Below are positions 28,729 through 37,161 of a DNA stretch of 64,000 nt, in pieces (position 1 is the stretch's first letter; each line of letters starts with the position of its first letter). The position numbers were made by a program, and so were the translations under genes. Where the stretch lies: sequence record MN850584.1; one strand, 5' to 3'. The stretch comes from Escherichia phage arall. The notes under the pieces were generated by a model. The model did not search any database and was not told where the DNA came from. It was given only the letters and a program-made list of their open reading frames with translations.

Positions 28729-29082
28729 TTACATCCACAGATTATGAAAATACTTAGCAAACAAAATGCGACCTTCTAAACGATCTTGCCGCTGTTTTTC
28801 ATTAACCTCTTCTGGTGGAGTTGAGTCCTTAAAAGAAGACTCCATTTTTTCAAGAATTTCTAACCAGTGTTCTGCTGCTCGTTCTTCCATATAAGGTAGA
28901 TAGTCACCTTTAGCGTGTGGGTACATCCGACGAAGTAACCCACTAGGAATTTTAACATTGTTTGTGGCTATCACTTTTGCACGATATGCAGAAAGTGCAT
29001 TGTAGATCAGTTTACTTAGTGTCACATCTAGATCAAGAAGATCACTCTCTTCAAATTGAATTTCATCGTGTACAATTTTCAT
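28729..29082 (-). CDS. Hypothetical protein
   Basis: 117 aa ORF. Confidence 0.45.
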   Translation of the reverse strand: MKIVHDEIQFEESDLLDLDVTLSKLIYNALSAYRAKVIATNNVKIPSGLLRRMYPHAKGDYLPYMEERAAEHWLEILEKMESSFKDSTPPEEVNEKQRQDRLEGRILFAKYFHNLWM

Positions 29083-29093
29083 ATCACTCTCCT

Positions 29094-29384
29094 TTATAGT
29101 AAAACACGTTTTGCACTGCTTGGTGCATTGTCGAACATGTTTATCACTTTGTCAAGTTTGTGTATTAACTCGTTCGTAATGTTCCACTCTTTGTATGATC
29201 TCCATTGTTTCTTATTCTCACCTACCTGGTGTAAAACTTTGATGGGTGCATTCAAACGTACATTGCGTTCTTTGTCCTCTTCAAAAGAGGCTAACCATTT
29301 TTCGTTATGCCCATGAACAGCAATAATAATGCCAAAACCATCAAAAGTTTCTGTAATATTCTTAGTTGCTAGTGTGATGTTCAT
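29094..29384 (-). CDS. Hypothetical protein
   Basis: 96 aa ORF; first gene of the minus block at the strand-switch. Confidence 0.45.
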   Translation of the reverse strand: MNITLATKNITETFDGFGIIIAVHGHNEKWLASFEEDKERNVRLNAPIKVLHQVGENKKQWRSYKEWNITNELIHKLDKVINMFDNAPSSAKRVLL

Positions 29385-29443
29385 ATCTAACCTCTTTTGT
29401 TACGATGCACACAGAGTACCAGAAATTAATTTCAGATCAAGTA

Positions 29444-29471
29444 TTGACATACTGTTTTATTGTGCTAATCT
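29444..29471 (+). promoter_or_regulatory. Sigma70-like promoter (TTGACA-16-TAATCT) at the divergent strand-switch
   Basis: Read from sequence; drives plus-strand block starting 29504. Confidence 0.4.
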
Positions 29472-29503
29472 TAATGCATACACAAATGAGAGGAGATAAA
29501 CGA

Positions 29504-30055
29504 ATGCAAAACACCAATCTGACTTGGATAGAAGCCAAAGAAGCAATGTTAAAAGGCAAACGCGTTAAACATAAATACTTTTGCGAAGGAGAATGGTTTG
29601 AAATGCGTAACCGATCCCTTGTAGATGAAAAAGGGAATGACATGGAACAATGGTTCAAAAATGAAATTTGGCAGGGGACAGGTTGGTCTATAGTTGAAGA
29701 GCAGCCTAGCCCAAGCGCACTGTTTAGCCCTATTATGTATCGCGTTATCGGTGCTTTAGTTGTTGATCACGGAATTGCAGTGGAAAAAGAATGCTGGGAA
29801 AAGGTATCTTTTTTCAACCTGGCTTCTTATGCAAAAAGCCATATGCACTTGTTTGAAGAAGGGGATGAATTTGTTCTTCGTATGCGATATGGCAAAGAAT
29901 TCAGATTACCACTTGATAATGATGTAGACACTGTTGTAAAATGGTTAGCAGAGCATTACGCTTACGATGCAATTTGTGGTCGCAGCTTCGGCAACGAACG
30001 CTGGGACATGATTTGTGAAAAATATGATTTTGAGCCAGAGTACGGAGTTTTATAA
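29504..30055 (+). CDS. Hypothetical protein with possible N-terminal DUF2829 (Tad2-like) segment
   Basis: ATG at 29504 with GAGGAG upstream; LTWIEAKEAMLKGKRVKHKYFCEGEWF resembles the W-x-EA-x-K-G-K-x-V-R pattern of DUF2829; weak. Confidence 0.5.
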   Translation: MQNTNLTWIEAKEAMLKGKRVKHKYFCEGEWFEMRNRSLVDEKGNDMEQWFKNEIWQGTGWSIVEEQPSPSALFSPIMYRVIGALVVDHGIAVEKECWEKVSFFNLASYAKSHMHLFEEGDEFVLRMRYGKEFRLPLDNDVDTVVKWLAEHYAYDAICGRSFGNERWDMICEKYDFEPEYGVL

Positions 30056-30306
30056 TGTTAAGTATCAAACCTAAAATGATAACAGAAGACGAAGCAGACT
30101 TTATTTTCAAATGTGGACGTGTATGGAGAGAATTCACAAAAGGGAATGAAGTGGTTGTTGTTGTCGAACACAAGATATCTATCCAGGATCTGTTTGGACA
30201 ATATGTTGATGTTATTAAATTAGGTATTGACAAGGGTTTAGTTGAGGTGTTAACATTAGATCAAGTTGAAGCAGAGCACCTCGATAAAGTGGTGGTTGAA
30301 TTTTAA
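30055..30306 (+). CDS. Hypothetical protein
   Basis: 83 aa ORF. Confidence 0.45.
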   Translation: MLSIKPKMITEDEADFIFKCGRVWREFTKGNEVVVVVEHKISIQDLFGQYVDVIKLGIDKGLVEVLTLDQVEAEHLDKVVVEF

Positions 30307-30326
30307 AATACAGACGGGAGAAAGGT

Positions 30327-30500
30327 ATGAGTTTCTTTGTTACAGTATTTATGGCTATCTGGATTGTAGTCTCACTCGTTCTTTTCCTGGTGGGTTGTCT
30401 GGAAGAGATTAAGAAAGCGGTTATTTGCGGTTTCTTTGGCTTTATTATCTCTCCTGCCTGGATGTGGTTCTTCATTATGATTGGTTTCCTTAAAAGGTAA
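30327..30500 (+). CDS. Small membrane protein (57 aa)
   Basis: ATG after AGGT; two hydrophobic segments; below track cutoff. Confidence 0.35.
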   Translation: MSFFVTVFMAIWIVVSLVLFLVGCLEEIKKAVICGFFGFIISPAWMWFFIMIGFLKR

Positions 30501-30514
30501 GTGAGGAATAAAGA

Positions 30515-30952
30515 ATGAGTAAAACAAACGCAATCGCAGATAAAGCAACGGATGTACTTCTGAACATGGTTAACGTCACTATTCAAACAATGAGTGATGT
30601 TGTGGAGTTTGGAAAACAACAAATTCCAGAAGTAATCCATCAATTATTAGTGTGGAAAGCAGTATCCGCAGGTTTATGGCAACTTTTTAGTATTTGCTTT
30701 ATGTTTATTACTTTTATTGCTGTGCGGAACCTCGTAAAAGCAATTAAAGATAAAGAATGCCTGTGGTCACGAGATCGCTATGGTGAAGTATCTGCTTTAC
30801 CTATTGTTGGTCTTGTTGTCTGTGCTTTCTTTTTCTTTTTAGGATTTGTTATTTTCTTTTCGAATTTTGATTGGCTAAAAATTATTATTGCACCAAAAGT
30901 GTATCTGATTGAATTTGCTGCTGATTTAATTCGTTCATCTCAACAAAGATAA
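30515..30952 (+). CDS. Membrane protein
   Basis: 145 aa with two long hydrophobic helices. Confidence 0.5.
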   Translation: MSKTNAIADKATDVLLNMVNVTIQTMSDVVEFGKQQIPEVIHQLLVWKAVSAGLWQLFSICFMFITFIAVRNLVKAIKDKECLWSRDRYGEVSALPIVGLVVCAFFFFLGFVIFFSNFDWLKIIIAPKVYLIEFAADLIRSSQQR

Positions 30953-30964
30953 AAGGGGGTTAAA

Positions 30965-32092
30965 ATGAAATACACGATTTATGGTGATATTGTAAGTGTA
31001 AATAAAGATATGGGCGTGGAATCTAACTATCTTCCACCTGGATTCTATACTGTTAGTCGTGATCCCCTTGGCAATTACTTTTTAAGCCGTGGTAATCTAA
31101 CAGGTGTACCGGATGTTCTGTATGGTGAAACAGAAAAACGAGCAAATCACGTTATTCGTACATTCCATCGCCGGAGTGCACAAGGTAAAAATACAGGTTT
31201 GCTCCTGACAGGAACTAAGGGCAGTGGTAAAACTATGTTAGCCAAACTCATTAGTCGTGACCTTGTAGAAGAAGGTATTCCAACTATTATGGTTACTCAA
31301 GCCTACAGTGATGCTAATTTCATTGAACTTATTAGCAAGATCACAGACAAAGCAGTCATTATTTTTGACGAGTTTGATAAAGTATATGAGAAGAAACAAG
31401 ATCAAGAAGCACTTCTCACTTTGTTAGATGGTACTGGCAGTGGTAATAAACTGTTTATTCTGACTAAAAACAGTGGTTTTATCTCTGAATTCTTTTTAAA
31501 TCGTCCTAGTCGTGTGTTTTATAATTTTAATTATGATAAAATCTCACTAGAAACTATGATTGACTATTTAGATAAAAACCTGGATAACAAAGCACACTTT
31601 GATAATTTCCAAAGACTTTGGGATGTAAGTTTAGAGTTGTCCTTTGATGTGATCCAAGGTATAGTAGAAGAACTTAATTTCTATCCTGATTTATCCTTTA
31701 AAGAATGCATCTCTATGATGGGCGTTTCTTTGGGTGGTGGTAATAAATGGGATATCAGCAGCGTTGTTATTAATGGAAAACTTCAGAAAGTTAGCTGGGT
31801 ATCTAGTTGGCATAACTTCACACCTGCAATCTTTTTAGGTGGTTCGTGCACACTAGACGTGTACTTGTCATCTCCAAGTGATGCAGACTCTAAAGAAGCC
31901 CTTGCTAATAGCTCTTACGTGGTTTTTGATGATGAAGGCGATGCTCGAATTCCATTGAATGCGACAAAAATGAAAGCAGATCTTATTACAGGCGGTAAAA
32001 TCGTTGTGTTTAGTGATGATCCAGAAGATTCTTTCCGTATTGTTCTGGAACCAACTATCACCAATGGTGCAACTTTGGCAAGTGTGTTTTAA
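30965..32092 (+). CDS. AAA+/P-loop ATPase-like protein (paralog of 13786-14946)
   Basis: Walker A GTKGSGKT, Walker B IIFDEFD; collinear similarity to minus-strand paralog. Confidence 0.6.
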   Translation: MKYTIYGDIVSVNKDMGVESNYLPPGFYTVSRDPLGNYFLSRGNLTGVPDVLYGETEKRANHVIRTFHRRSAQGKNTGLLLTGTKGSGKTMLAKLISRDLVEEGIPTIMVTQAYSDANFIELISKITDKAVIIFDEFDKVYEKKQDQEALLTLLDGTGSGNKLFILTKNSGFISEFFLNRPSRVFYNFNYDKISLETMIDYLDKNLDNKAHFDNFQRLWDVSLELSFDVIQGIVEELNFYPDLSFKECISMMGVSLGGGNKWDISSVVINGKLQKVSWVSSWHNFTPAIFLGGSCTLDVYLSSPSDADSKEALANSSYVVFDDEGDARIPLNATKMKADLITGGKIVVFSDDPEDSFRIVLEPTITNGATLASVF

Positions 32093-32106
32093 GTAAGCCA
32101 GCAAAT

Positions 32107-32131
32107 AAAAACCCGCTTCGGCGGGTTTTCT
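32107..32131 (+). terminator. Rho-independent terminator
   Basis: AACCCGC-TTCG-GCGGGTT hairpin followed by TTTTCTTG; identical hairpin recurs at 57026. Confidence 0.6.
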
Positions 32132-32166
32132 TGCATTAATGCCAGATTTAATAAGAGGAGTAGTAG

Positions 32167-33360
32167 ATGGCAGCACCAAAATCATGGGAACAATATAAAG
32201 AAGAGTGTCAACCTATTGCGAATAATAAAGGGATTGAGATCCTAGGATATGTTGAACCGTTTATAGGTTGTGATACGAAAATGATTCTACGCTGTAGGCA
32301 GGAACATGAATGGAAGACTTGTAGTATTAGTAATTTCAAGCACGGTAACAGTTGTCCTATCTGTTCTGGTAAGAAGCCGTTAACATGGGAAACAGAATTG
32401 CCGATCTTGGAAGAGATAGCACAGAAGAAGGGGTATCAGGTGTTAGGGTACGTTGGAGAATGGAAAGGGAATAAAACAAAACTTGATTTGTTGTGCCATT
32501 GTGGGAATAGATGGCAAAGTACAGCAATTCATCAATTTAAAGGCGGTCGAGGTTGTCCACAATGTAGGGGGGAGAATACAAGGAAGGCACTAACAATGTC
32601 CGACGATCAACATATTGCAGATTTCTTTTCTACAGGGAAATTTAAGGAAGGCACTATCTTCACTAACACAGGAACACGGAGTAAAGGATGCAGGCATAGT
32701 ATCTGGATGGTTGAATGTCCTGTTTGCTCTCATGATGAATATGTTCAAGCAGGTGTTTGTGATGGTAAATTTTACTCTGAAGGAAATAACCTTAAACGAG
32801 GGTGCATTCCGTGTCGTTGTGGGAACTATCGGTATACAGAAGACCAGATCACCTATAGGGTAAAAAAGGAAGTAGAAGGGCAAGGGTATGTCTGGGTAGG
32901 TTGGATCGGTAAACCGTCTAGAAGTCACGGTAAGTTTAAATATCTTTGTCTTGTGCATGGGGAACAGACAGGGAGGGCTAATAACTTATTAAGCCTCGGT
33001 CAAGGTTGTCCACAGTGTGCTGGTCATAATCAACAGCAATTATATATTAATATTGTTAAAGATAATGATATTATAGTGGCTCTTAAGTTTGGTATAGCTA
33101 AAGATAGTGATAGGCGATTAAATAGTCAAAATAGTTGTAATATGTTTTTTATGGAGCGTATTTGTTTATATGATTTTAGCACAGTGAAACAATGTAAGGC
33201 TGCTGAAAGAGCTATAAAGAAAAAATTAAAAACTGGTATTTTAACGGAAAGAGAGTTGAAAGACGGTTATACAGAAACAGTAAGTGTTTCTGATTTGGAA
33301 AATCTTCAAGAAATTATTACACAACATGGTGGCAAATTAGTATATAATAAGGAGATGTAA
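32167..33360 (+). CDS. Zinc-ribbon repeat protein with C-terminal T5orf172/GIY-YIG-like domain (putative free-standing homing endonuclease)
   Basis: Four repeated modules each ending in a CPxC zinc ribbon (CPICSG, GCPQCRG, CPVCSH, GCPQCAG); C-terminal YINIVKDNDIIVALKFGIAKD...RR resembles T5orf172 domain. Confidence 0.45.
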   Translation: MAAPKSWEQYKEECQPIANNKGIEILGYVEPFIGCDTKMILRCRQEHEWKTCSISNFKHGNSCPICSGKKPLTWETELPILEEIAQKKGYQVLGYVGEWKGNKTKLDLLCHCGNRWQSTAIHQFKGGRGCPQCRGENTRKALTMSDDQHIADFFSTGKFKEGTIFTNTGTRSKGCRHSIWMVECPVCSHDEYVQAGVCDGKFYSEGNNLKRGCIPCRCGNYRYTEDQITYRVKKEVEGQGYVWVGWIGKPSRSHGKFKYLCLVHGEQTGRANNLLSLGQGCPQCAGHNQQQLYINIVKDNDIIVALKFGIAKDSDRRLNSQNSCNMFFMERICLYDFSTVKQCKAAERAIKKKLKTGILTERELKDGYTETVSVSDLENLQEIITQHGGKLVYNKEM

Positions 33361-33912
33361 ATGCGGATTACTGATAAGTATGTGTTCTTCTTTTCGGCAA
33401 AAGATGAATTTAGCAACTGGTATCTATCATCTTTTATTGAACCTTTAGCTCCCAAGTATAATAATTCTATCACAAGTTCTGTCGAATTTACTTGTGTGGA
33501 ACAATATATGATGTGGAGAAAAGCATGTTTGTTTTATGATTACAATATTGCATCTTCTATTTTAACCGGAGATCTAAGATATACAGGAGAAAAAGAACAA
33601 GCATATTATAAGCGACTAGGTAGATTAGTTAAAGATTATGATGAAGACACCTGGACTTCTTTACGGGAGAAGATTGTCAAACGTGGTTTGTATCTTAAAT
33701 ACACACAAAATGAAGATCTCAAAAATAAACTTATTGCTTACGCAGATAAGGAGTTCGTAGAGGCAAGCCCTTATGATTCTATTTATGGTATCAAAATGGG
33801 GATGTGGGATCGGGACGTGGAAAATAAGGATTGTTGGAAAGGACAAAATCTTTTAGGAAAATGGCATACAGACCTTGCTGTTTATCTAAAAACACAATCT
33901 GATATTTCCTGA
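33361..33912 (+). CDS. NADAR (DUF1768, YbiA-like) domain protein
   Basis: FFFS..DEFSNWY...EQYMMWRKA...EASPYDSIYGIKMG follows the NADAR pattern. Confidence 0.7.
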   Translation: MRITDKYVFFFSAKDEFSNWYLSSFIEPLAPKYNNSITSSVEFTCVEQYMMWRKACLFYDYNIASSILTGDLRYTGEKEQAYYKRLGRLVKDYDEDTWTSLREKIVKRGLYLKYTQNEDLKNKLIAYADKEFVEASPYDSIYGIKMGMWDRDVENKDCWKGQNLLGKWHTDLAVYLKTQSDIS

Positions 33913-34130
33913 TATTTTGAAAATTTTTATTTTTATAAAAAGGGGTGTGGTTTCATGTACGGAAATCCACCCTCTGAATAATATATCCAGAGTAAATATT
34001 ATTCTGTACTCTGTTAATAAAGTATTTAATTTGTTTGTTGGACTATGGTATCTGATCTTTAAAAGGTATACTATCTCTTAACTACTACTTATAACAGAAC
34101 AGTAAAATCATTTTTATAAAAAGGATAAAA

Positions 34131-34330
34131 TTATTTAAAGTTTTTACAGATTTTTGGATACAAATTTTGAAAATGAAAAGTTCAAGTTTGGTCAAAATTA
34201 TTTAAAGTTTTTGTACGTATTTCTATCCAGATTTTGAAAATGAAAACTTCAATTTTTTAAAAATTCCCCAGTTTATTTAAAGTTTTTTTGCCTTTTTCCG
34301 TAGAAAAATCAAAAATGAAAAGTTCAATTT
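34131..34330. repeat. Three iteron-like direct repeats (period about 66-75 bp)
   Basis: Each unit has TTATTTAAAGTTTTT followed by (A)TTTTGAAAATGAAAAGTTCAA-like motif (34164-34185, 34231-34252, 34308-34327). Confidence 0.6.
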
Positions 34331-34350
34331 CGTGTTTTTATGGGTGTGCG

Positions 34351-34412
34351 GATGATAATCATTCTCACTAAGAGAATGAGAATCATTAGCAAATGAGAAT
34401 TTTTCTCATTTA
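34351..34412. promoter_or_regulatory. Nested palindromes including two Fur-box-like sites
   Basis: GATGATAATCATTCTCAC and GAGAATGAGAATCATTAGC resemble the Fur consensus GATAATGATAATCATTATC; plus perfect palindrome AAATGAGAA-TTT-TTCTCATTT. Confidence 0.4.
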
Positions 34413-34429
34413 GAGAATAACGCGCAGGG

Positions 34430-34641
34430 GTGGTGTTTGTCTCGCGCTCCCGTGTCCCCTCGCCATACAATAAGAATAGCATAACCAACAACAAAAGCAA
34501 GCGATTATTTTTATCTTTACATTTCTTTACAAATTTATTTTAGACGAGCTACCGGCGATCAACCTTCCAACCAGTGCCCCCTGGTATGTTAGCCCCGCCT
34601 TTACGCCGTGGGGGTGGCGTTTCCTCTTCTGTATGTAAAAC
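34430..34641 (-). ncRNA. Candidate structured non-coding RNA downstream of a minus-strand promoter
   Basis: GC-rich segment in AT-rich context, no ORF, directly downstream of TTGACA-17-TATACT; speculative. Confidence 0.2.
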
Positions 34642-34670
34642 AGTATAAGCCCGATCCCTGGGCTTGTCAA
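34642..34670 (-). promoter_or_regulatory. Sigma70-like promoter (TTGACA-17-TATACT), minus strand
   Basis: Consensus -35 and near-consensus -10; spacer contains GC hairpin AAGCCC-AGGGATC-GGGCTT. Confidence 0.45.
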
Positions 34671-34672
34671 GA

Positions 34673-34939
34673 TTATTTTTTGTTTTCTTGCCAGGATAGG
34701 ACACCTAACCAAAAATACATGTCGCCCCGCGCCCCTGGCGGGATCTTGCTTTCCCCGCCGCCACTGCAAGCCCATAGATAACCATTTACGAACGTATCAA
34801 AGTGATCTATCTCTTCCACCTTATGATTGCCCAGGTTGAGAACGGTTTCAACCTTTAAGCCCGTTGCGCTTGCTACCTGGTGCACCGTGCCGCCTTGCCA
34901 GCCCAATGAGTGCATGAGGTGTAAAGTAGTATTTGTCAT
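34673..34939 (-). CDS. Hypothetical protein (88 aa) in GC-rich island
   Basis: ATG with AAAGGGCG SD-like sequence; own promoter and 5' hairpin upstream; local GC content higher than surroundings. Confidence 0.5.
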   Translation of the reverse strand: MTNTTLHLMHSLGWQGGTVHQVASATGLKVETVLNLGNHKVEEIDHFDTFVNGYLWACSGGGESKIPPGARGDMYFWLGVLSWQENKK

Positions 34940-34961
34940 GGTATCGCCCTTTCTTTGATGT

Positions 34962-34977
34962 GCGCCCTGGTTGGCGC
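34962..34977 (-). promoter_or_regulatory. 5'-UTR hairpin (GCGCC-AACCAG-GGCGC) of minus-strand gene
   Basis: Inverted repeat between promoter and start codon. Confidence 0.35.
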
Positions 34978-34986
34978 GGTAGAAAG

Positions 34987-35015
34987 ATAATAGCCCTTTC
35001 CTTTATAGATAGCAA
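34987..35015 (-). promoter_or_regulatory. Sigma70-like promoter (TTGCTA-17-TATTAT), minus strand
   Basis: Back-to-back with plus promoter at 35056; shared A-tract (35016-35050) could act as UP element for both. Confidence 0.45.
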
Positions 35016-35055
35016 GCAAAAAAAAAGAAATGAAAAAAAGATTAAAAAAAAGGGG

Positions 35056-35084
35056 TTGACGTTCCTCACCTGGTAGCGTATTAT
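35056..35084 (+). promoter_or_regulatory. Sigma70-like promoter (TTGACG-17-TATTAT), first plus-strand early promoter
   Basis: Preceded by long A-tract. Confidence 0.5.
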
Positions 35085-35211
35085 TCATCTTGTCGAGGGG
35101 GGCGAGGCACAACGACAATAAACAAAAGGAGGGCGCAATGTAGGACGGGCAAAGGTGAGGATCTCCATAATCCACCGTCACAATAACATTACTTATAAAA
35201 GGTTGATAACG

Positions 35212-35307
35212 ATGATCAAGAAAGAAAACAGCTTGACGGTTGGAACGATTAACGCTATCATTCTAGCCGTTCCATTTTGGGTTGTAGTAGCGGTTATTAT
35301 CTTTTAA
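35212..35307 (+). CDS. Small hydrophobic peptide (31 aa)
   Basis: ATG 9 nt after AAGG; single TM-like segment; low confidence. Confidence 0.25.
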   Translation: MIKKENSLTVGTINAIILAVPFWVVVAVIIF

Positions 35308-35315
35308 AAATATTC

Positions 35316-35343
35316 TTGACAACGTTTTTTAATCTGATAAGAT
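35316..35343 (+). promoter_or_regulatory. Sigma70-like promoter (TTGACA-16-TAAGAT)
   Basis: Upstream of hairpin and gene 35396. Confidence 0.45.
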
Positions 35344-35353
35344 GTATCACATA

Positions 35354-35373
35354 GGGCGGCAATAGTGCCGCTC
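35354..35373 (+). promoter_or_regulatory. Conserved 5'-UTR hairpin (family member 1)
   Basis: CATAGG-GCGGCA-ATAG-TGCCGC; 40-nt element identical to copy at 38448-38487. Confidence 0.6.
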
Positions 35374-35395
35374 ATAACAGAAGAGAGAAATAATC

Positions 35396-35668
35396 ATGGC
35401 ATCATATAGCGCATCAATGATCGTAATGGGTATCACTGGTAAACCTATGCGCGGTGGCGGATCTTTCGCTAACATCAATATTGATGGGCGTTTATCCCTG
35501 GATGCAGCGATCACCGTGGCACGGGAAACATTTAAAAAAGAATGTAATTTCAATAAACAAGATTATCTCGGTTTCGCTATTGAAAAAACCGCGCGCTTTG
35601 TTGATTATAAAAGCCCGAAAATGGTTGATACTACACTAAAAGCGCAAGATGTAGCATTTTTGCTTTAA
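35396..35668 (+). CDS. Hypothetical early protein
   Basis: 90 aa ORF, ATG start. Confidence 0.55.
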   Translation: MASYSASMIVMGITGKPMRGGGSFANINIDGRLSLDAAITVARETFKKECNFNKQDYLGFAIEKTARFVDYKSPKMVDTTLKAQDVAFLL

Positions 35669-35671
35669 GGC

Positions 35672-35701
35672 TTGACACTGAAAAATAATTTGGTAATATA
35701 T
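35672..35701 (+). promoter_or_regulatory. Sigma70-like promoter (TTGACA-17/18-AATATA)
   Basis: Upstream of hairpin and gene 35755. Confidence 0.45.
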
Positions 35702-35710
35702 ACTACATAG

Positions 35711-35732
35711 GGCGGGGAAATGGTTTCCCGCC
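35711..35732 (+). promoter_or_regulatory. Conserved 5'-UTR hairpin (family member 2)
   Basis: GGCGGGGAA-ATGG-TTTCCCGCC, 9-bp stem. Confidence 0.6.
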
Positions 35733-35754
35733 AAATCAAAGAAAGGGTAACACA

Positions 35755-36117
35755 ATGAGCAAGCAAATCAATACTATCATGTTAAACCTGGTATCTTTCC
35801 GCGACGACGTGAAAAATCTTCCACGTGATGCAGTGGATGCACGTATCGAAAGCTATCGCTCACAGATCGCAACGCTACCGCTAAAACGTGATCAACATGC
35901 CGCTAATATGATGCTTAATGCTATGCTTAAAAAGATGATTCAATGTGATCTTACCCTGGCTTATGAATATGCTGGCGATCTCTTTGTAACATATAGCAAG
36001 CCCGTACCAGGTATGAGCACAACCGAAGAATTGCATGCCTTAAATCTGCGACAAGATGCATGGGATAACATGCGCCGTGTTATGGTATGGGTAGAAAGCG
36101 GTAAAATTTACGAATAA
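35755..36117 (+). CDS. Hypothetical early protein
   Basis: 120 aa ORF. Confidence 0.55.
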   Translation: MSKQINTIMLNLVSFRDDVKNLPRDAVDARIESYRSQIATLPLKRDQHAANMMLNAMLKKMIQCDLTLAYEYAGDLFVTYSKPVPGMSTTEELHALNLRQDAWDNMRRVMVWVESGKIYE

Positions 36118-36123
36118 AAACGG

Positions 36124-36151
36124 TTGACATTGCACTAAAACCTGATAAGCT
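36124..36151 (+). promoter_or_regulatory. Sigma70-like promoter (TTGACA-16-TAAGCT)
   Basis: Upstream of hairpin 36158. Confidence 0.4.
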
Positions 36152-36157
36152 ATCTTA

Positions 36158-36178
36158 AAGCGGGAATAGTTCCCGCTT
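36158..36178 (+). promoter_or_regulatory. Conserved 5'-UTR hairpin (family member 3)
   Basis: AAGCGGGAA-TAG-TTCCCGCTT, 9-bp stem, 3-nt loop. Confidence 0.6.
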
Positions 36179-36195
36179 ACATAGGATAAAACTTT

Positions 36196-36342
36196 ATGAA
36201 ACAATATGTAATGAGTATTCACACCAAAAACGGCGCTACTGTTACGACTCCGGCACGGTTTGCACTTGTAAACCGTTGCAAGAGACTAAAACGAGAGCTA
36301 AAAAACAACCGTGCAACGGGCTTTAAACGCTGGGGAGGATAA
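36196..36342 (+). CDS. Small basic protein (48 aa)
   Basis: ATG downstream of hairpin; below track cutoff. Confidence 0.4.
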   Translation: MKQYVMSIHTKNGATVTTPARFALVNRCKRLKRELKNNRATGFKRWGG

Positions 36343-36344
36343 TC

Positions 36345-36605
36345 TTGTTTTTTCTAAAAGTTTTTGATAATGTGATCGCTTTTGAACATGCTGCAACGTT
36401 CAACCTGGCGAGATACGCTATCAGGTTTAAAGATAATGTTTATCCCCGTGCTGGTGGCGGTTACACTATCTTTAATCATCGTAACGCTCAATTAACGGAT
36501 ATAACGAATCCAGATCCTGGAGTGTATCGCATAGGTTGGCTACCGTCAAAAGACGCGGCAAGCATGTTTAAGGTATGTAAACTACTAACAGAAGAGGCAA
36601 ATTAG
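36345..36605 (+). CDS. Hypothetical protein (start uncertain, TTG or GTG)
   Basis: 86 aa ORF with no in-frame ATG near 5' end. Confidence 0.4.
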   Translation: MFFLKVFDNVIAFEHAATFNLARYAIRFKDNVYPRAGGGYTIFNHRNAQLTDITNPDPGVYRIGWLPSKDAASMFKVCKLLTEEAN

Positions 36606-36606
36606 C

Positions 36607-37161
36607 ATGGGGCGTGAGTATGTGATCCAGTCCTGGGTAAAGCATGACGCTAATGATCCGCGCATAATACCAGATGACATGATCGATCACATGGTAGGGT
36701 ATAGCGGGGAGCAGATAGGAAATCGAGCGGCAAAGAGCAACGGCAACACAAAGGCGCGATCCGTTCGCCCTGGTTGGCTGGCAAATGGTAACGCTGACAT
36801 TACAAGCGCCGCAGATCCAAGCGATGACGCTAAAAATAATCCCTTATACAGCATTGATCCGGCTTTTAAGGTGTTAGAAGAATATCCCGCTAAATTAGCC
36901 GCACTAGATAAAGCATACGAAGAAAAACGGGTGGCATGGACTGTATACAACACCGCTAAAATGGTGCTAGATGCAAAATTGATTAAAGCCCAGGAGAAGA
37001 TCAATAAACTTGTTACCATAGCGCAAGAGGAAGACCAGGACGACCAGGAGGAAGAGGAAGAAATCATGCCTATCCTGGAAGAGGAAGAGATCCAGCCATA
37101 CATGCCGACGGAAGAGGAAAAAAGACAAGCCTTAAAAAATTACGAAAATTGTATTGTGTAA
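36607..37161 (+). CDS. Hypothetical protein with acidic C-terminal tail
   Basis: 184 aa ORF. Confidence 0.55.
   Translation: MGREYVIQSWVKHDANDPRIIPDDMIDHMVGYSGEQIGNRAAKSNGNTKARSVRPGWLANGNADITSAADPSDDAKNNPLYSIDPAFKVLEEYPAKLAALDKAYEEKRVAWTVYNTAKMVLDAKLIKAQEKINKLVTIAQEEDQDDQEEEEEIMPILEEEEIQPYMPTEEEKRQALKNYENCIV

What the first reader, a model, noticed from the sequence alone, without database searches (positions are those of the whole stretch)
32167..33360. Zinc-ribbon repeat protein with T5orf172/GIY-YIG-like domain: likely selfish endonuclease
Four tandem modules each end in a CPxC zinc ribbon and are followed by a T5orf172-like nuclease segment. The gene sits between a terminator and the NADAR gene, an intergenic position typical of free-standing homing endonucleases.
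Basis: partly seen in the sequence, partly recalled or inferred. Interest (0 to 1): 0.35.

Follow-up and report, generated by a model that had tools for sequence, protein, structure and literature searches.

The report
Phage endonuclease with swappable zinc-finger modules
This gene of a phi92-like E. coli phage encodes a known type of probable "selfish" DNA-cutting enzyme, a T5orf172 nuclease domain behind four CapR-type zinc-finger DNA-reading modules; it is ordinary as a kind, but its reading modules are gained, lost and swapped between phages while the cutting domain and neighbouring genes barely change.

Summary
Window 32167..33360 (+) is a 397-aa ORF with four tandem cysteine-rich modules and a C-terminal T5orf172 domain. 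It lies between an intrinsic terminator and a NADAR gene. Each module alone passes Pfam's threshold for the CapR homology domain; T5orf172 passes narrowly. The architecture is the one described for putative T5orf172 homing endonucleases of vibriophage ICP1 (Barth 2023; Netter 2021), and RefSeq already calls the orthologs "endonuclease".

The catalytic-type residues (Y293, K307, G309, R317, E347, E370) are invariant in about 117 homologs, and the nuclease domain is under purifying selection.

No empty site exists in about 55 close relatives (0 of 80 records). Klebsiella-phage relatives and 76 of 80 IMG/VR loci with the same ATPase lack the gene.

Within the genus the flanks and the nuclease domain are 90–100% identical. 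The DNA-binding array is a mosaic (32–100% nt identity) with 3, 4 or 5 modules. Two modules are closer to a different genus than to phi92.

Verdict: a new member of a known kind. It is probably a sequence-specific nuclease of homing-endonuclease type, but homing itself is unproven.

The parts
30965..32092 (+). Upstream neighbour: AAA+ ATPase gene (375 aa), 100% aa-identical across the genus. It anchors the locus.
   Evidence: Pfam AAA 1.5e-9, PHROG 2376 6.6e-108; dN about 0 and dS 0.05-0.10 against six relatives.
32101..32134 (+). Intrinsic-terminator-type hairpin (core stem 32108-32116 / 32121-32129, loop TTCG, then CTTGC) between the ATPase and the endonuclease gene.
   Evidence: Sequence; fold with 9-bp GC-rich core stem, -18 kcal/mol for the 78-nt stretch; annotated 'terminator' in phages Paula and PATM. 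The simple scanner did not list it.
32153..32160 (+). Shine-Dalgarno AAGAGGAG, 6 nt before the ATG at 32167.
   Evidence: Sequence; phi92 annotates an RBS at the same place.
32167..33360 (+). The gene: 397-aa CapR x4 + T5orf172 protein (stop codon included).
   Evidence: 100% aa identity to Escherichia phage vB_vPM_PD06 'endonuclease'.
32167..32382 (+). Module M1 (aa 1-72), type A: C43, H47/C52 ... C63-P-I-C66.
   Evidence: CapR PF21817 32.2 bits alone. Most divergent module: 46-58% aa against same-genus alleles, dS >= 1. Absent from 3-module alleles.
32383..32592 (+). Module M2 (aa 73-142), type A: C110-H-C112 ... C130-P-Q-C133.
   Evidence: CapR 56.9 bits alone; Cys nearly invariant in 49 homologs.
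32593..32832 (+). Module M3 (aa 143-222), type B: C184-P-V-C187 ... C213-I-P-C216-R-C218. Its CxxC...CxC layout resembles the experimentally tested zinc finger of PLE CapR.
   Evidence: CapR 48.4 bits alone; C184 and C218 invariant; CapR CxxC<-24-26->CxC motif and Cys-to-Ser EMSA in PMC8096241. 78% aa to phAPEC8 but 41% to phi92.
32833..33030 (+). Module M4 (aa 223-288), type A: C261, H264 ... C281-P-Q-C284.
   Evidence: CapR 30.1 bits alone; 69% aa to phAPEC8 but 47% to phi92.
33031..33357 (+). T5orf172 (GIY-YIG-clan) nuclease-type domain (aa 289-397). Invariant residues: Y293, K307, G309, R317, E347, G367, E370.
   Evidence: Pfam T5orf172 25.1 bits against cut-off 20; residues invariant in 117/117 aligned domains; AF2 model pLDDT 94.2, pTM 0.87, beta-beta-alpha-beta-alpha topology; BFVD matches; omega 0.19-0.36, dS equal to the flanks.
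32180..33020 (+). Hypervariable mosaic stretch (the whole DNA-binding array), inside otherwise 97-100% identical DNA.
   Evidence: 60-nt sliding identity against six same-genus phages: 32-100% in blocks, with sharp edges about 15 codons after the ATG and at the M4|T5orf172 boundary.
33349..33354 (+). Shine-Dalgarno AAGGAG of the NADAR gene, embedded in the last codons of the endonuclease gene (...AAGGAG ATG TAA ATG).
   Evidence: Sequence; the phi92 record annotates the RBS there.
33361..33912 (+). Downstream neighbour: NADAR gene (183 aa).
   Evidence: Pfam NADAR 2.5e-36; 98-99% aa identity in the genus.

Best explanation
The gene encodes a free-standing, homing-endonuclease-type, sequence-specific DNA nuclease of the T5orf172/CapR-repeat family. 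Four beads-on-a-string zinc-finger modules (layout A-A-B-A) would together read an extended DNA site. The C-terminal T5orf172 domain would cut nearby, using the Tyr/Arg/Glu set of the GIY-YIG clan (Y293, R317, E370). The gene has been inserted between the terminator of a highly conserved AAA+ ATPase gene and the NADAR gene, and it has gone to fixation in E. coli phi92-like phages. Its specificity-determining array keeps changing in two ways: unequal recombination between the repeated modules gives 3-, 4- and 5-module alleles, and module blocks are imported from diverged alleles, including those of the sister genus. The nuclease domain and the flanks are inherited with the genome. Shown here: domain content, conserved residues, selection pattern, mosaicism, distribution. 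Inferred: zinc binding, DNA binding, cleavage, and any homing or gene-conversion activity.
For: Architecture: four CapR domains plus T5orf172, each above the Pfam threshold; PHROG 681 'endonuclease' 4.3e-84. The same architecture is described for putative HEGs of ICP1 and other phages, including repeated CapR domains and in-frame repeat deletion or duplication (PMC10448857; PMC8096241). A T5orf172 domain is a proven nuclease in ICP1 Odn, where activity is lost in E180A, the equivalent of I-TevI E75 (PMC8263062). Here K307, G309, R317, E347, G367 and E370 are invariant in 117/117 aligned domains, and Y293 in 110/110. The domain shows omega 0.19-0.36 with dS 0.09-0.18, the same as the flanks. 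The domain model is confident (pLDDT 94.2) and matches 68 viral predicted structures at E<=1e-3, some named 'Homing endonuclease', 'GIY-YIG domain' or 'T5 Orf172'. The top PDB ranks are GIY-YIG nucleases Slx1, HIGLE and UvrC. Patchy distribution typical of mobile genes: tblastn hits in 478 phage records from Escherichia, Vibrio, Aeromonas, Klebsiella, Salmonella and Bacillus phages, often several places per genome. The gene is absent from this locus in Klebsiella relatives whose ATPase is closer (74-75% aa) than that of Phapecoctavirus (64%), which has it. Only 4 of 80 IMG/VR ATPase loci carry it. Module dynamics: alleles of 325-465 aa with A-B-A-T, A-A-B-A-T and A-A-A-B-A-T layouts; mosaic nucleotide identity; module dS from 0.04 to saturation against flank dS of 0.05-0.17; M3 and M4 are 78% and 69% identical to phAPEC8 but 41% and 47% to phi92.
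Against: No empty site exists among ~55 close relatives, so no ongoing homing can be read from the data. A divergent homolog sits at the same place in the sister genus with divergence similar to the flanks (60%/48% against 64%/59% aa), which also fits plain long-term vertical residence. Homing has not been demonstrated for any CapR/T5orf172 gene. The link to canonical GIY-YIG enzymes is weak in my own tests: no PDB hit at E<=0.001, hhalign against I-TevI negative, and the Pfam T5orf172 match covers only profile positions 10-69 of 101. No target site could be identified. The similarity of the two junctions is just the phage's usual RBS.
Confidence: 0.6

Rival explanations
1. A domesticated or weaponised nuclease rather than a selfish one. 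Like ICP1 Odn, the phage keeps it because it cuts a competitor (co-infecting related phages, a satellite or another mobile element, or host DNA). The arms race with changing targets would drive the turnover of the DNA-reading modules.
For: The gene is fixed at one locus in all sampled genus members, yet the nuclease domain remains under purifying selection with all key residues kept. The classical homing cycle predicts decay after fixation. Variation is concentrated exactly in the specificity-determining array. There is precedent: Odn is a T5orf172 nuclease whose DNA-binding part was swapped in to target the PLE origin.
Against: No target is known. There is no PADLOC or NCBIfam hit. Module omega is 0.2-0.8, not above 1 overall, and the high module dS points to recombination rather than point-mutation-driven positive selection. 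One relative (ECGD1) appears to carry a frameshifted copy, suggesting dispensability. No satellite of these phages is known to me (own knowledge).
Confidence: 0.22
2. A DNA-binding regulator (CapR-like repressor or autoregulator) that no longer cuts DNA. The T5orf172 domain would serve only as a DNA-binding or structural domain.
For: PLE CapR, founder of the Pfam family, is a transcriptional repressor derived from such endonucleases. I-TevI doubles as an autorepressor (discussed in PMC8096241). The gene is embedded in an operon-like array, and the RBS of the next gene lies inside it.
Against: A pure regulator would not need the Tyr/Arg/Glu set, yet it is conserved in every one of ~117 homologs. 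A regulator of a conserved phage promoter should have a conserved DNA-binding part, not alleles with 3-5 modules at 40-90% identity beside 97-100% identical flanks.
Confidence: 0.1
3. A decaying remnant without function, with variation due to relaxed constraint alone.
For: Possible frameshift in ECGD1; module omega up to about 0.8.
Against: Intact ORFs in nearly all relatives despite many in-frame rearrangements. All zinc-ligand Cys and catalytic-type residues are conserved. T5-domain omega is 0.19-0.36. Module dS far above flank dS cannot come from relaxed constraint.
Confidence: 0.03

Closest known systems
ICP1 T5orf172 putative homing endonucleases with CapR-type DNA-binding domains (gp174, gp165, gp121, gp53, gp130; Netter 2021 PMC8096241; Barth 2023 PMC10448857)
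   Same: Same two Pfam families in the same order, zinc-finger CapR module(s) N-terminal and T5orf172 C-terminal. Direct tblastn similarity, 32-34% over aa 87-323, E about 1e-26. Repeated DNA-binding modules, in-frame loss or gain by recombination between repeats, and DNA-binding parts and nuclease domains with different histories are all described there and seen here.
   Different: Different phage lineage (Stephanstirmvirinae coliphages, not mentioned in that paper). Here there is a single copy per genome, with no paralog in the 64-kb window and one place in the PD06 genome, not an expanded family. It is fixed at one locus rather than variably present. The array is longer (four modules, two subtypes, layout (A)n-B-A). 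The divergence boundaries lie inside the gene, not in neighbouring essential genes.
PLE CapR (capsid-operon repressor of the Vibrio cholerae satellite PLE)
   Same: The module fold and family (PF21817 is named after it). M3 has the CxxC...CxC cysteine layout that was mutated in CapR and shown to be needed for DNA binding.
   Different: CapR is a satellite-encoded repressor with a demonstrated regulatory role. The window protein is phage-encoded, has four modules, and has a T5orf172 domain with all catalytic-type residues conserved.
ICP1 Odn (gp88), origin-directed nuclease
   Same: T5orf172 nuclease domain with the catalytic Arg and Glu. It is the one member with proven cleavage. It shows that the DNA-binding part can be exchanged to retarget the nuclease.
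   Different: Odn uses a RepA_N-like DNA-binding domain, not CapR modules. It is variably present (alternating with CRISPR-Cas) and has a known target (PLE ori iterons).
I-TevI and T4 Seg free-standing GIY-YIG homing endonucleases
   Same: 'Beads on a string' logic: a small nuclease domain tethered to modular DNA-binding elements that include a zinc finger. Free-standing position between genes, after a terminator, with its own RBS (established knowledge for T4 seg/mob genes).
   Different: Domain order is reversed (nuclease N-terminal in I-TevI). There is no detectable sequence similarity (hhalign probability 0.4%) and only non-significant fold matches to GIY-YIG structures. I-TevI has one zinc finger plus a helix and an HTH, not an array of four zinc-finger modules.

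Membership tests
Pfam CapR homology domain (PF21817) | Score above the curated gathering threshold (24.2 bits) | tested here: met
   131.7 bits for the whole protein, 4 stretches. Each module alone scores 32.2, 56.9, 48.4 and 30.1 bits.
Pfam CapR homology domain (PF21817) | Two pairs of zinc-ligand Cys/His (CxxC ... CxC or a variant) conserved in each module | tested here: met
   C43, C63, C66, C110, C130, C133, C184, C218, C261, C281 and C284 are invariant or at least 90% conserved in 49 homologs. Zinc binding itself is not testable here.
Pfam T5orf172 (PF10544), GIY-YIG clan | Score above the curated gathering threshold (20 bits) | tested here: met
   22.1 bits in the whole protein, 25.1 bits for the domain alone. 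The match is narrow, covering profile positions 10-69 of 101. The related MUG113 model is below its threshold.
Pfam T5orf172 (PF10544), GIY-YIG clan | Conserved Tyr (first strand), Gly (second strand), Arg (first helix) and catalytic Glu | tested here: met
   Y293 110/110; K307, G309, R317, E347, G367 and E370 117/117. Their placement on strand 1, strand 2, helix 1 and before helix 3 is taken from the AF2 model. Equating E370 with I-TevI E75 / Odn E180 is inferred from position, not from an alignment.
GIY-YIG nuclease superfamily (fold level) | Significant structural similarity to a solved GIY-YIG domain | tested here: inconclusive
   GIY-YIG nucleases (Slx1 6sei/6seh/7cq2/7cq4, At-HIGLE 7wme, UvrC 1yd5/1ycz) take most top ranks, but the best E is 0.58 and TM is 0.3-0.56. 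hhalign against the I-TevI catalytic domain is negative (the I-TevI sequence was verified). BFVD hits include one named 'GIY-YIG domain-containing protein'.
Homing endonuclease gene (functional class) | Presence/absence polymorphism at the same site among otherwise similar genomes | tested here: not met
   Among close relatives, 0 of 80 records match the empty junction. Absence is seen only in relatives with 74-75% or lower ATPase identity, where the whole downstream region differs.
Homing endonuclease gene (functional class) | Patchy distribution and different genomic contexts across unrelated genomes | tested here: met
   Homologs occur in 478 phage records of many host genera, with up to 4 places per genome. 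FKP3 carries a T5orf172 gene elsewhere on the other strand. 76 of 80 ATPase loci lack it.
Homing endonuclease gene (functional class) | Site-specific cleavage of the cognate gene-less allele, and super-Mendelian inheritance in crosses | not testable with these tools
   Needs biochemistry and phage crosses. Not shown for any CapR/T5orf172 gene according to PMC10448857.

The most novel reading that the evidence does not exclude
The locus may be a fixed 'specificity cassette' rather than a classical come-and-go homing gene. A constant nuclease domain is coupled to an array of DNA-reading modules that is reshuffled among co-infecting E. coli phages of two genera, by module gain/loss and block exchange. 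Alleles with different arrays may cut each other's variable region or other loci of rival phages. That would drive gene conversion, which would explain both the mosaic confined to the array and the continued selection on the nuclease after fixation. This would be a phage analogue of rapidly evolving zinc-finger arrays such as PRDM9.
Probability: 0.2. Interest if true: 0.55.

Novelty: new member of a known kind. Interest (0 to 1): 0.3.

Why it matters
As a kind it is already described and already annotated as "endonuclease", so the gene alone adds little. The value lies in the natural allele series. Dozens of almost identical coliphage genomes (BASEL phages, phi92 and others, all growing on E. 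coli K-12) differ at this locus mainly in which and how many zinc-finger modules are attached to an invariant nuclease domain. That makes it a tractable system for three open questions about the T5orf172/CapR family. First, do these proteins really home? Second, how does each module contribute to target recognition? Third, does module shuffling retarget the enzyme? The modular reader-plus-nuclease layout could also interest people who design programmable nucleases.

Tried and rejected
1. Internal repeats by BLASTP self-comparison gave nothing. The modules are too diverged and were resolved only with profiles.
2. Paralogs in the window: none (tblastn).
3. The whole-chain Foldseek search against the PDB was uninformative for a five-domain flexible model. 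The domain-only search gave GIY-YIG nucleases at the top, but none significant.
4. A sequence search of the PDB with the family profile returned only a chance RING-finger hit at E 4.9.
5. hhalign of the family profile against the I-TevI catalytic domain showed no similarity.
6. The idea of a target-site duplication or direct repeat flanking the gene came from BLAST extending across my artificial junction. I rejected it because the shared AATAAG(G)AG..ATG is the phage's usual RBS, with AAGGAG N4-10 ATG occurring 35 times in the window.
7. NCBIfam and PADLOC gave no hit for the protein.
8. Rfam on 29000-37000 gave no hit, and there are no tRNAs in the window.
9. The promoter/terminator scanner neither listed the obvious terminator nor found a promoter in the 74-nt spacer. 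How the gene is transcribed remains open; read-through is a guess.
10. The first related-loci run with a single ATPase sequence returned only 4 loci. It was repeated with an alignment.
11. Positive selection was not demonstrated. Module omega is 0.2-0.8, with one value of 1.47 that rests on very few changes.
Full report
**1. What is there**

The window is part of a phi92-like E. coli myovirus (Stephanstirmvirinae, genus Justusliebigvirus). The 3.6 kb around the finding is 98.5% identical to phage vB_vPM_PD06, and the protein is 100% identical to the PD06 product.

- It follows the stop codon of a 375-aa AAA+ ATPase gene (30965..32092).
- A GC-rich hairpin, AAAACCCGC-TTCG-GCGGGTTTT at 32108-32129, lies in between. 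Related records annotate it as a terminator.
- A strong Shine-Dalgarno, AAGAGGAG, sits at 32153-32160.
- The stop codon is followed at once by the ATG of a NADAR gene (33361..33912; Pfam 2.5e-36). That gene's own Shine-Dalgarno (AAGGAG, 33349-33354) lies inside the last codons of the ORF.

**2. Domain anatomy**

Pfam finds four stretches of the CapR homology domain (PF21817, E 1.1e-38) and a C-terminal T5orf172 domain (PF10544, 22.1 bits against a cut-off of 20).

Scanned separately, each of the four modules passes the CapR threshold of 24.2 bits:

| Module | Residues | CapR score (bits) |
|---|---|---|
| M1 | 1-72 | 32.2 |
| M2 | 73-142 | 56.9 |
| M3 | 143-222 | 48.4 |
| M4 | 223-288 | 30.1 |

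The C-terminal part alone scores 25.1 bits for T5orf172. PHROGs places the protein in phrog_681 'endonuclease' (4.3e-84).

The cysteine motifs are CPIC 63, CPQC 130, CPVC 184, CIPC 213 (+C218) and CPQC 281.

Profile typing separates two module subtypes:
- Type A (M1, M2, M4) has C-x(1-3)-[CH] ... CPxC.
- Type B (M3) has CPxC ... CxPCxC. This is the layout of the zinc finger mutated in PLE CapR (C43/46/72/74S abolishes DNA binding; PMC8096241).

An AlphaFold model built on 49 homologs is confident at domain level (mean pLDDT 92.5). Its pTM is 0.56, as expected for beads on a string.

**3. The nuclease domain**

In a 49-sequence alignment reaching down to about 22% identity, the invariant positions of the C-terminal domain are Y293, G309, R317, E347, G367 and E370.

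Across all 118 database homologs plus the window protein, 116 of the 119 have the domain. Among the aligned domains, K307, G309, R317, E347, G367 and E370 are conserved in 117/117, and Y293 in 110/110.

The domain-only model (pLDDT 94.2, pTM 0.87) has the order strand-strand-helix-strand-helix ... helix-strand. The Tyr lies on strand 1, K-F-G on strand 2, the Arg at the start of helix 1, and E370 just before the last helix. This is the arrangement reported for GIY-YIG-clan domains and for Odn. Odn is the one T5orf172 protein with demonstrated nuclease activity, and that activity is lost in E180A (PMC8263062).

My own attempts to tie the domain to solved GIY-YIG structures were only weakly positive:
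- Slx1, At-HIGLE and UvrC N-terminal domains occupy most of the top PDB ranks, but none is significant (best E 0.58).
- A profile-versus-sequence comparison with the I-TevI catalytic domain found nothing. The I-TevI sequence was recalled from memory and verified at 100% against T4.
- Against predicted viral structures there are 68 matches at E <= 1e-3 (TM 0.7-0.98). These include proteins named 'Homing endonuclease', 'GIY-YIG domain-containing protein' and 'Bacteriophage T5 Orf172 ... domain-containing protein'.

**4. Is it known?**

Yes, as a kind. CapR is the capsid-operon repressor of the V. cholerae satellite PLE. Netter et al. showed that it is related to the N-terminal zinc-finger domains of a set of ICP1 proteins with C-terminal T5orf172 domains, which they interpreted as homing endonucleases.

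Barth et al. 2023 then described T5orf172 HEGs in many phages. They reported that 41.5% of these genes have CapR domains, often repeated. They also reported that recombination between repeats produces in-frame deletions and duplications, and that DNA-binding and nuclease parts can have different histories.

The window protein hits the ICP1 genes directly (32-34% identity, E about 1e-26). That paper does not mention phi92- or phAPEC8-like phages, and it states that homing of these genes has not been verified experimentally. RefSeq already labels the orthologs 'endonuclease', and UniRef labels them 'CapR homology domain-containing protein'.

**5. Presence/absence**

Among close relatives the gene is fixed.
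- A synthetic gene-less junction (200 bp from each side) is matched contiguously by 0 of 80 records, including 55 with at least 90% identity.
- A 2-kb version spans 2979-3399 bp in every listed relative.
- The gene always starts 74 nt after the ATPase stop and always abuts NADAR.
- The sister genus Phapecoctavirus has a homolog at the same upstream junction, followed by two extra small ORFs before NADAR.

At greater distance the gene is absent.
- Klebsiella phages FKP3 and KP2025, and IMG/VR contig L018, have ATPases 74-75% identical to ours. That is closer than Phapecoctavirus (64-67%).
- They nevertheless carry unrelated genes downstream and no CapR/T5orf172 gene at this site.
- FKP3 has a T5orf172 gene elsewhere, on the other strand.
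- In a scan of 80 ATPase-encoding IMG/VR loci, only the four E. coli-phage-type loci carry the gene.

This distribution needs either a loss in the Klebsiella-phage branch, or gain or exchange among phages that share E. coli as host.

**6. The variable part**

Seven alleles from the genus differ by whole modules:

| Allele length (aa) | Layout |
|---|---|
| 325, 329 | A-B-A-T |
| 390-403 (includes the window) | A-A-B-A-T |
| 465 | A-A-A-B-A-T |

Among 118 database homologs, (A)n-B-A-T with n = 1-4 dominates (76 proteins). Other layouts also occur: B-A-B-A-T, A3-4-T, and one tandem fusion of two whole genes.

Nucleotide identity to six same-genus phages follows a sharp pattern:
- It is 97-100% up to the start codon.
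- It drops within about 15 codons.
- It stays blocky (32-100%) through the array.
- It returns to 90-98% exactly at the M4|T5orf172 boundary and continues so into NADAR.

Nei-Gojobori estimates:

| Segment | dS | omega |
|---|---|---|
| Flanking genes | 0.05-0.17 | <= 0.07 |
| T5orf172 domain | 0.09-0.18 | 0.19-0.36 |
| CapR modules | 0.04 to saturated, differing by module and by phage | 0.2-0.8 |

Synonymous divergence many times that of the flanks cannot be produced by selection on the protein. It means that module blocks come from diverged sources.

Consistent with that, the window's M3 and M4 are 78% and 69% identical to phAPEC8. phAPEC8 belongs to a different genus; its T5 domain is only 49% identical and its flanks 64% and 59%. 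Against phi92, of the same genus (T5 domain 92%, flanking ATPase 100%), M3 and M4 are only 41% and 47% identical. The window's M1 DNA is found at 99-100% in the PD06, PD211, Eryne and muut records and at 88.5% in PD114. Its next best matches are Phapecoctavirus alleles at about 73%.

**7. Interpretation**

The best-supported reading is a sequence-specific nuclease of the homing-endonuclease type. A four-module zinc-finger reader is tethered to a T5orf172 cutter. The gene is inserted next to a highly conserved gene and is now fixed. Its reader array evolves by unequal recombination and block exchange (confidence about 0.6).

What is shown: the architecture, the conservation of ligand and catalytic-type residues, purifying selection on the nuclease domain, the mosaic, and the distribution. 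What is inferred: zinc and DNA binding, cleavage, and homing.

The main rival (about 0.22) is that the nuclease is retained because it benefits the phage. It would then be an Odn-like weapon against co-infecting relatives or other elements. That would explain why the catalytic domain has not decayed after fixation and why variation is confined to the specificity part.

A non-cutting CapR-like regulator (about 0.1) fits poorly with universal conservation of the catalytic-type residues and with a hypervariable DNA-binding part. A dead remnant (about 0.03) is contradicted by the selection pattern. One relative (ECGD1) does show a frameshift at the M3|M4 boundary, which may be real or a sequencing error.

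**8. Verdict**

The gene is a new member of a known kind. Interest is modest (0.3). Its main value is that it offers a natural allele series, in easily handled coliphages, for testing how CapR module arrays specify targets and whether T5orf172 genes home at all.

Noticed in passing
window 34127-34331: Three tandem direct repeats of about 63-75 bp (TTATTTAAAGTTTTT ... GAAAATGAAAAGTTCAA; 71-83% alike) lie in an ORF-poor stretch (about 33913-35150) downstream of NADAR. Related records annotate them only as 'repeat_region'. There is no Rfam match. They could be reiterated promoters or operators, or iterons.
   Followed up: partly
window 33361-33912: Besides Pfam NADAR, the NADAR protein matches the PADLOC candidate-defence model PDC-M42C (1.5e-34). 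Related records annotate it variously as 'YbiA-like N-glycosidase' or 'GTP cyclohydrolase II'.
   Followed up: no
L013 (Enterobacteria phage ECGD1, KU522583) 401-1572: The orthologous gene is split into two overlapping CDSs by a frameshift at the M3|M4 boundary (...YTED | QITYRV...). It is either a decayed allele or a sequencing error.
   Followed up: partly
protein P0027 (669 aa, metagenomic): Its layout is A-B-A-T-A-B-A-T: two complete CapR/T5orf172 genes fused head to tail in one ORF. This implies tandem duplication of the whole gene in some phage.
   Followed up: no
L009 (Klebsiella phage FKP3) 389-1339, minus strand: This relative lacks the gene after the ATPase. It carries a T5orf172-domain 'endonuclease' about 2 kb upstream on the opposite strand, and a DNA methyltransferase where the window has the endonuclease.
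   Followed up: partly
window about 29000-29400: The GC-skew sign change and the switch from minus-strand to plus-strand ORFs mark a divergent transcription boundary. The plus-strand block that contains the finding runs to about 57.7 kb, with a short reversal near 34.5-35 kb and at 44-45 kb.
   Followed up: no
window 30965-32092: The AAA+ ATPase is 100% identical at the protein level in six same-genus phages (dN about 0) while dS is 0.05-0.10, which is unusually strong constraint. It is annotated inconsistently across records as ATPase, 'FtsH-like protease', 'Zn metalloprotease' or 'replicative helicase'.
   Followed up: no
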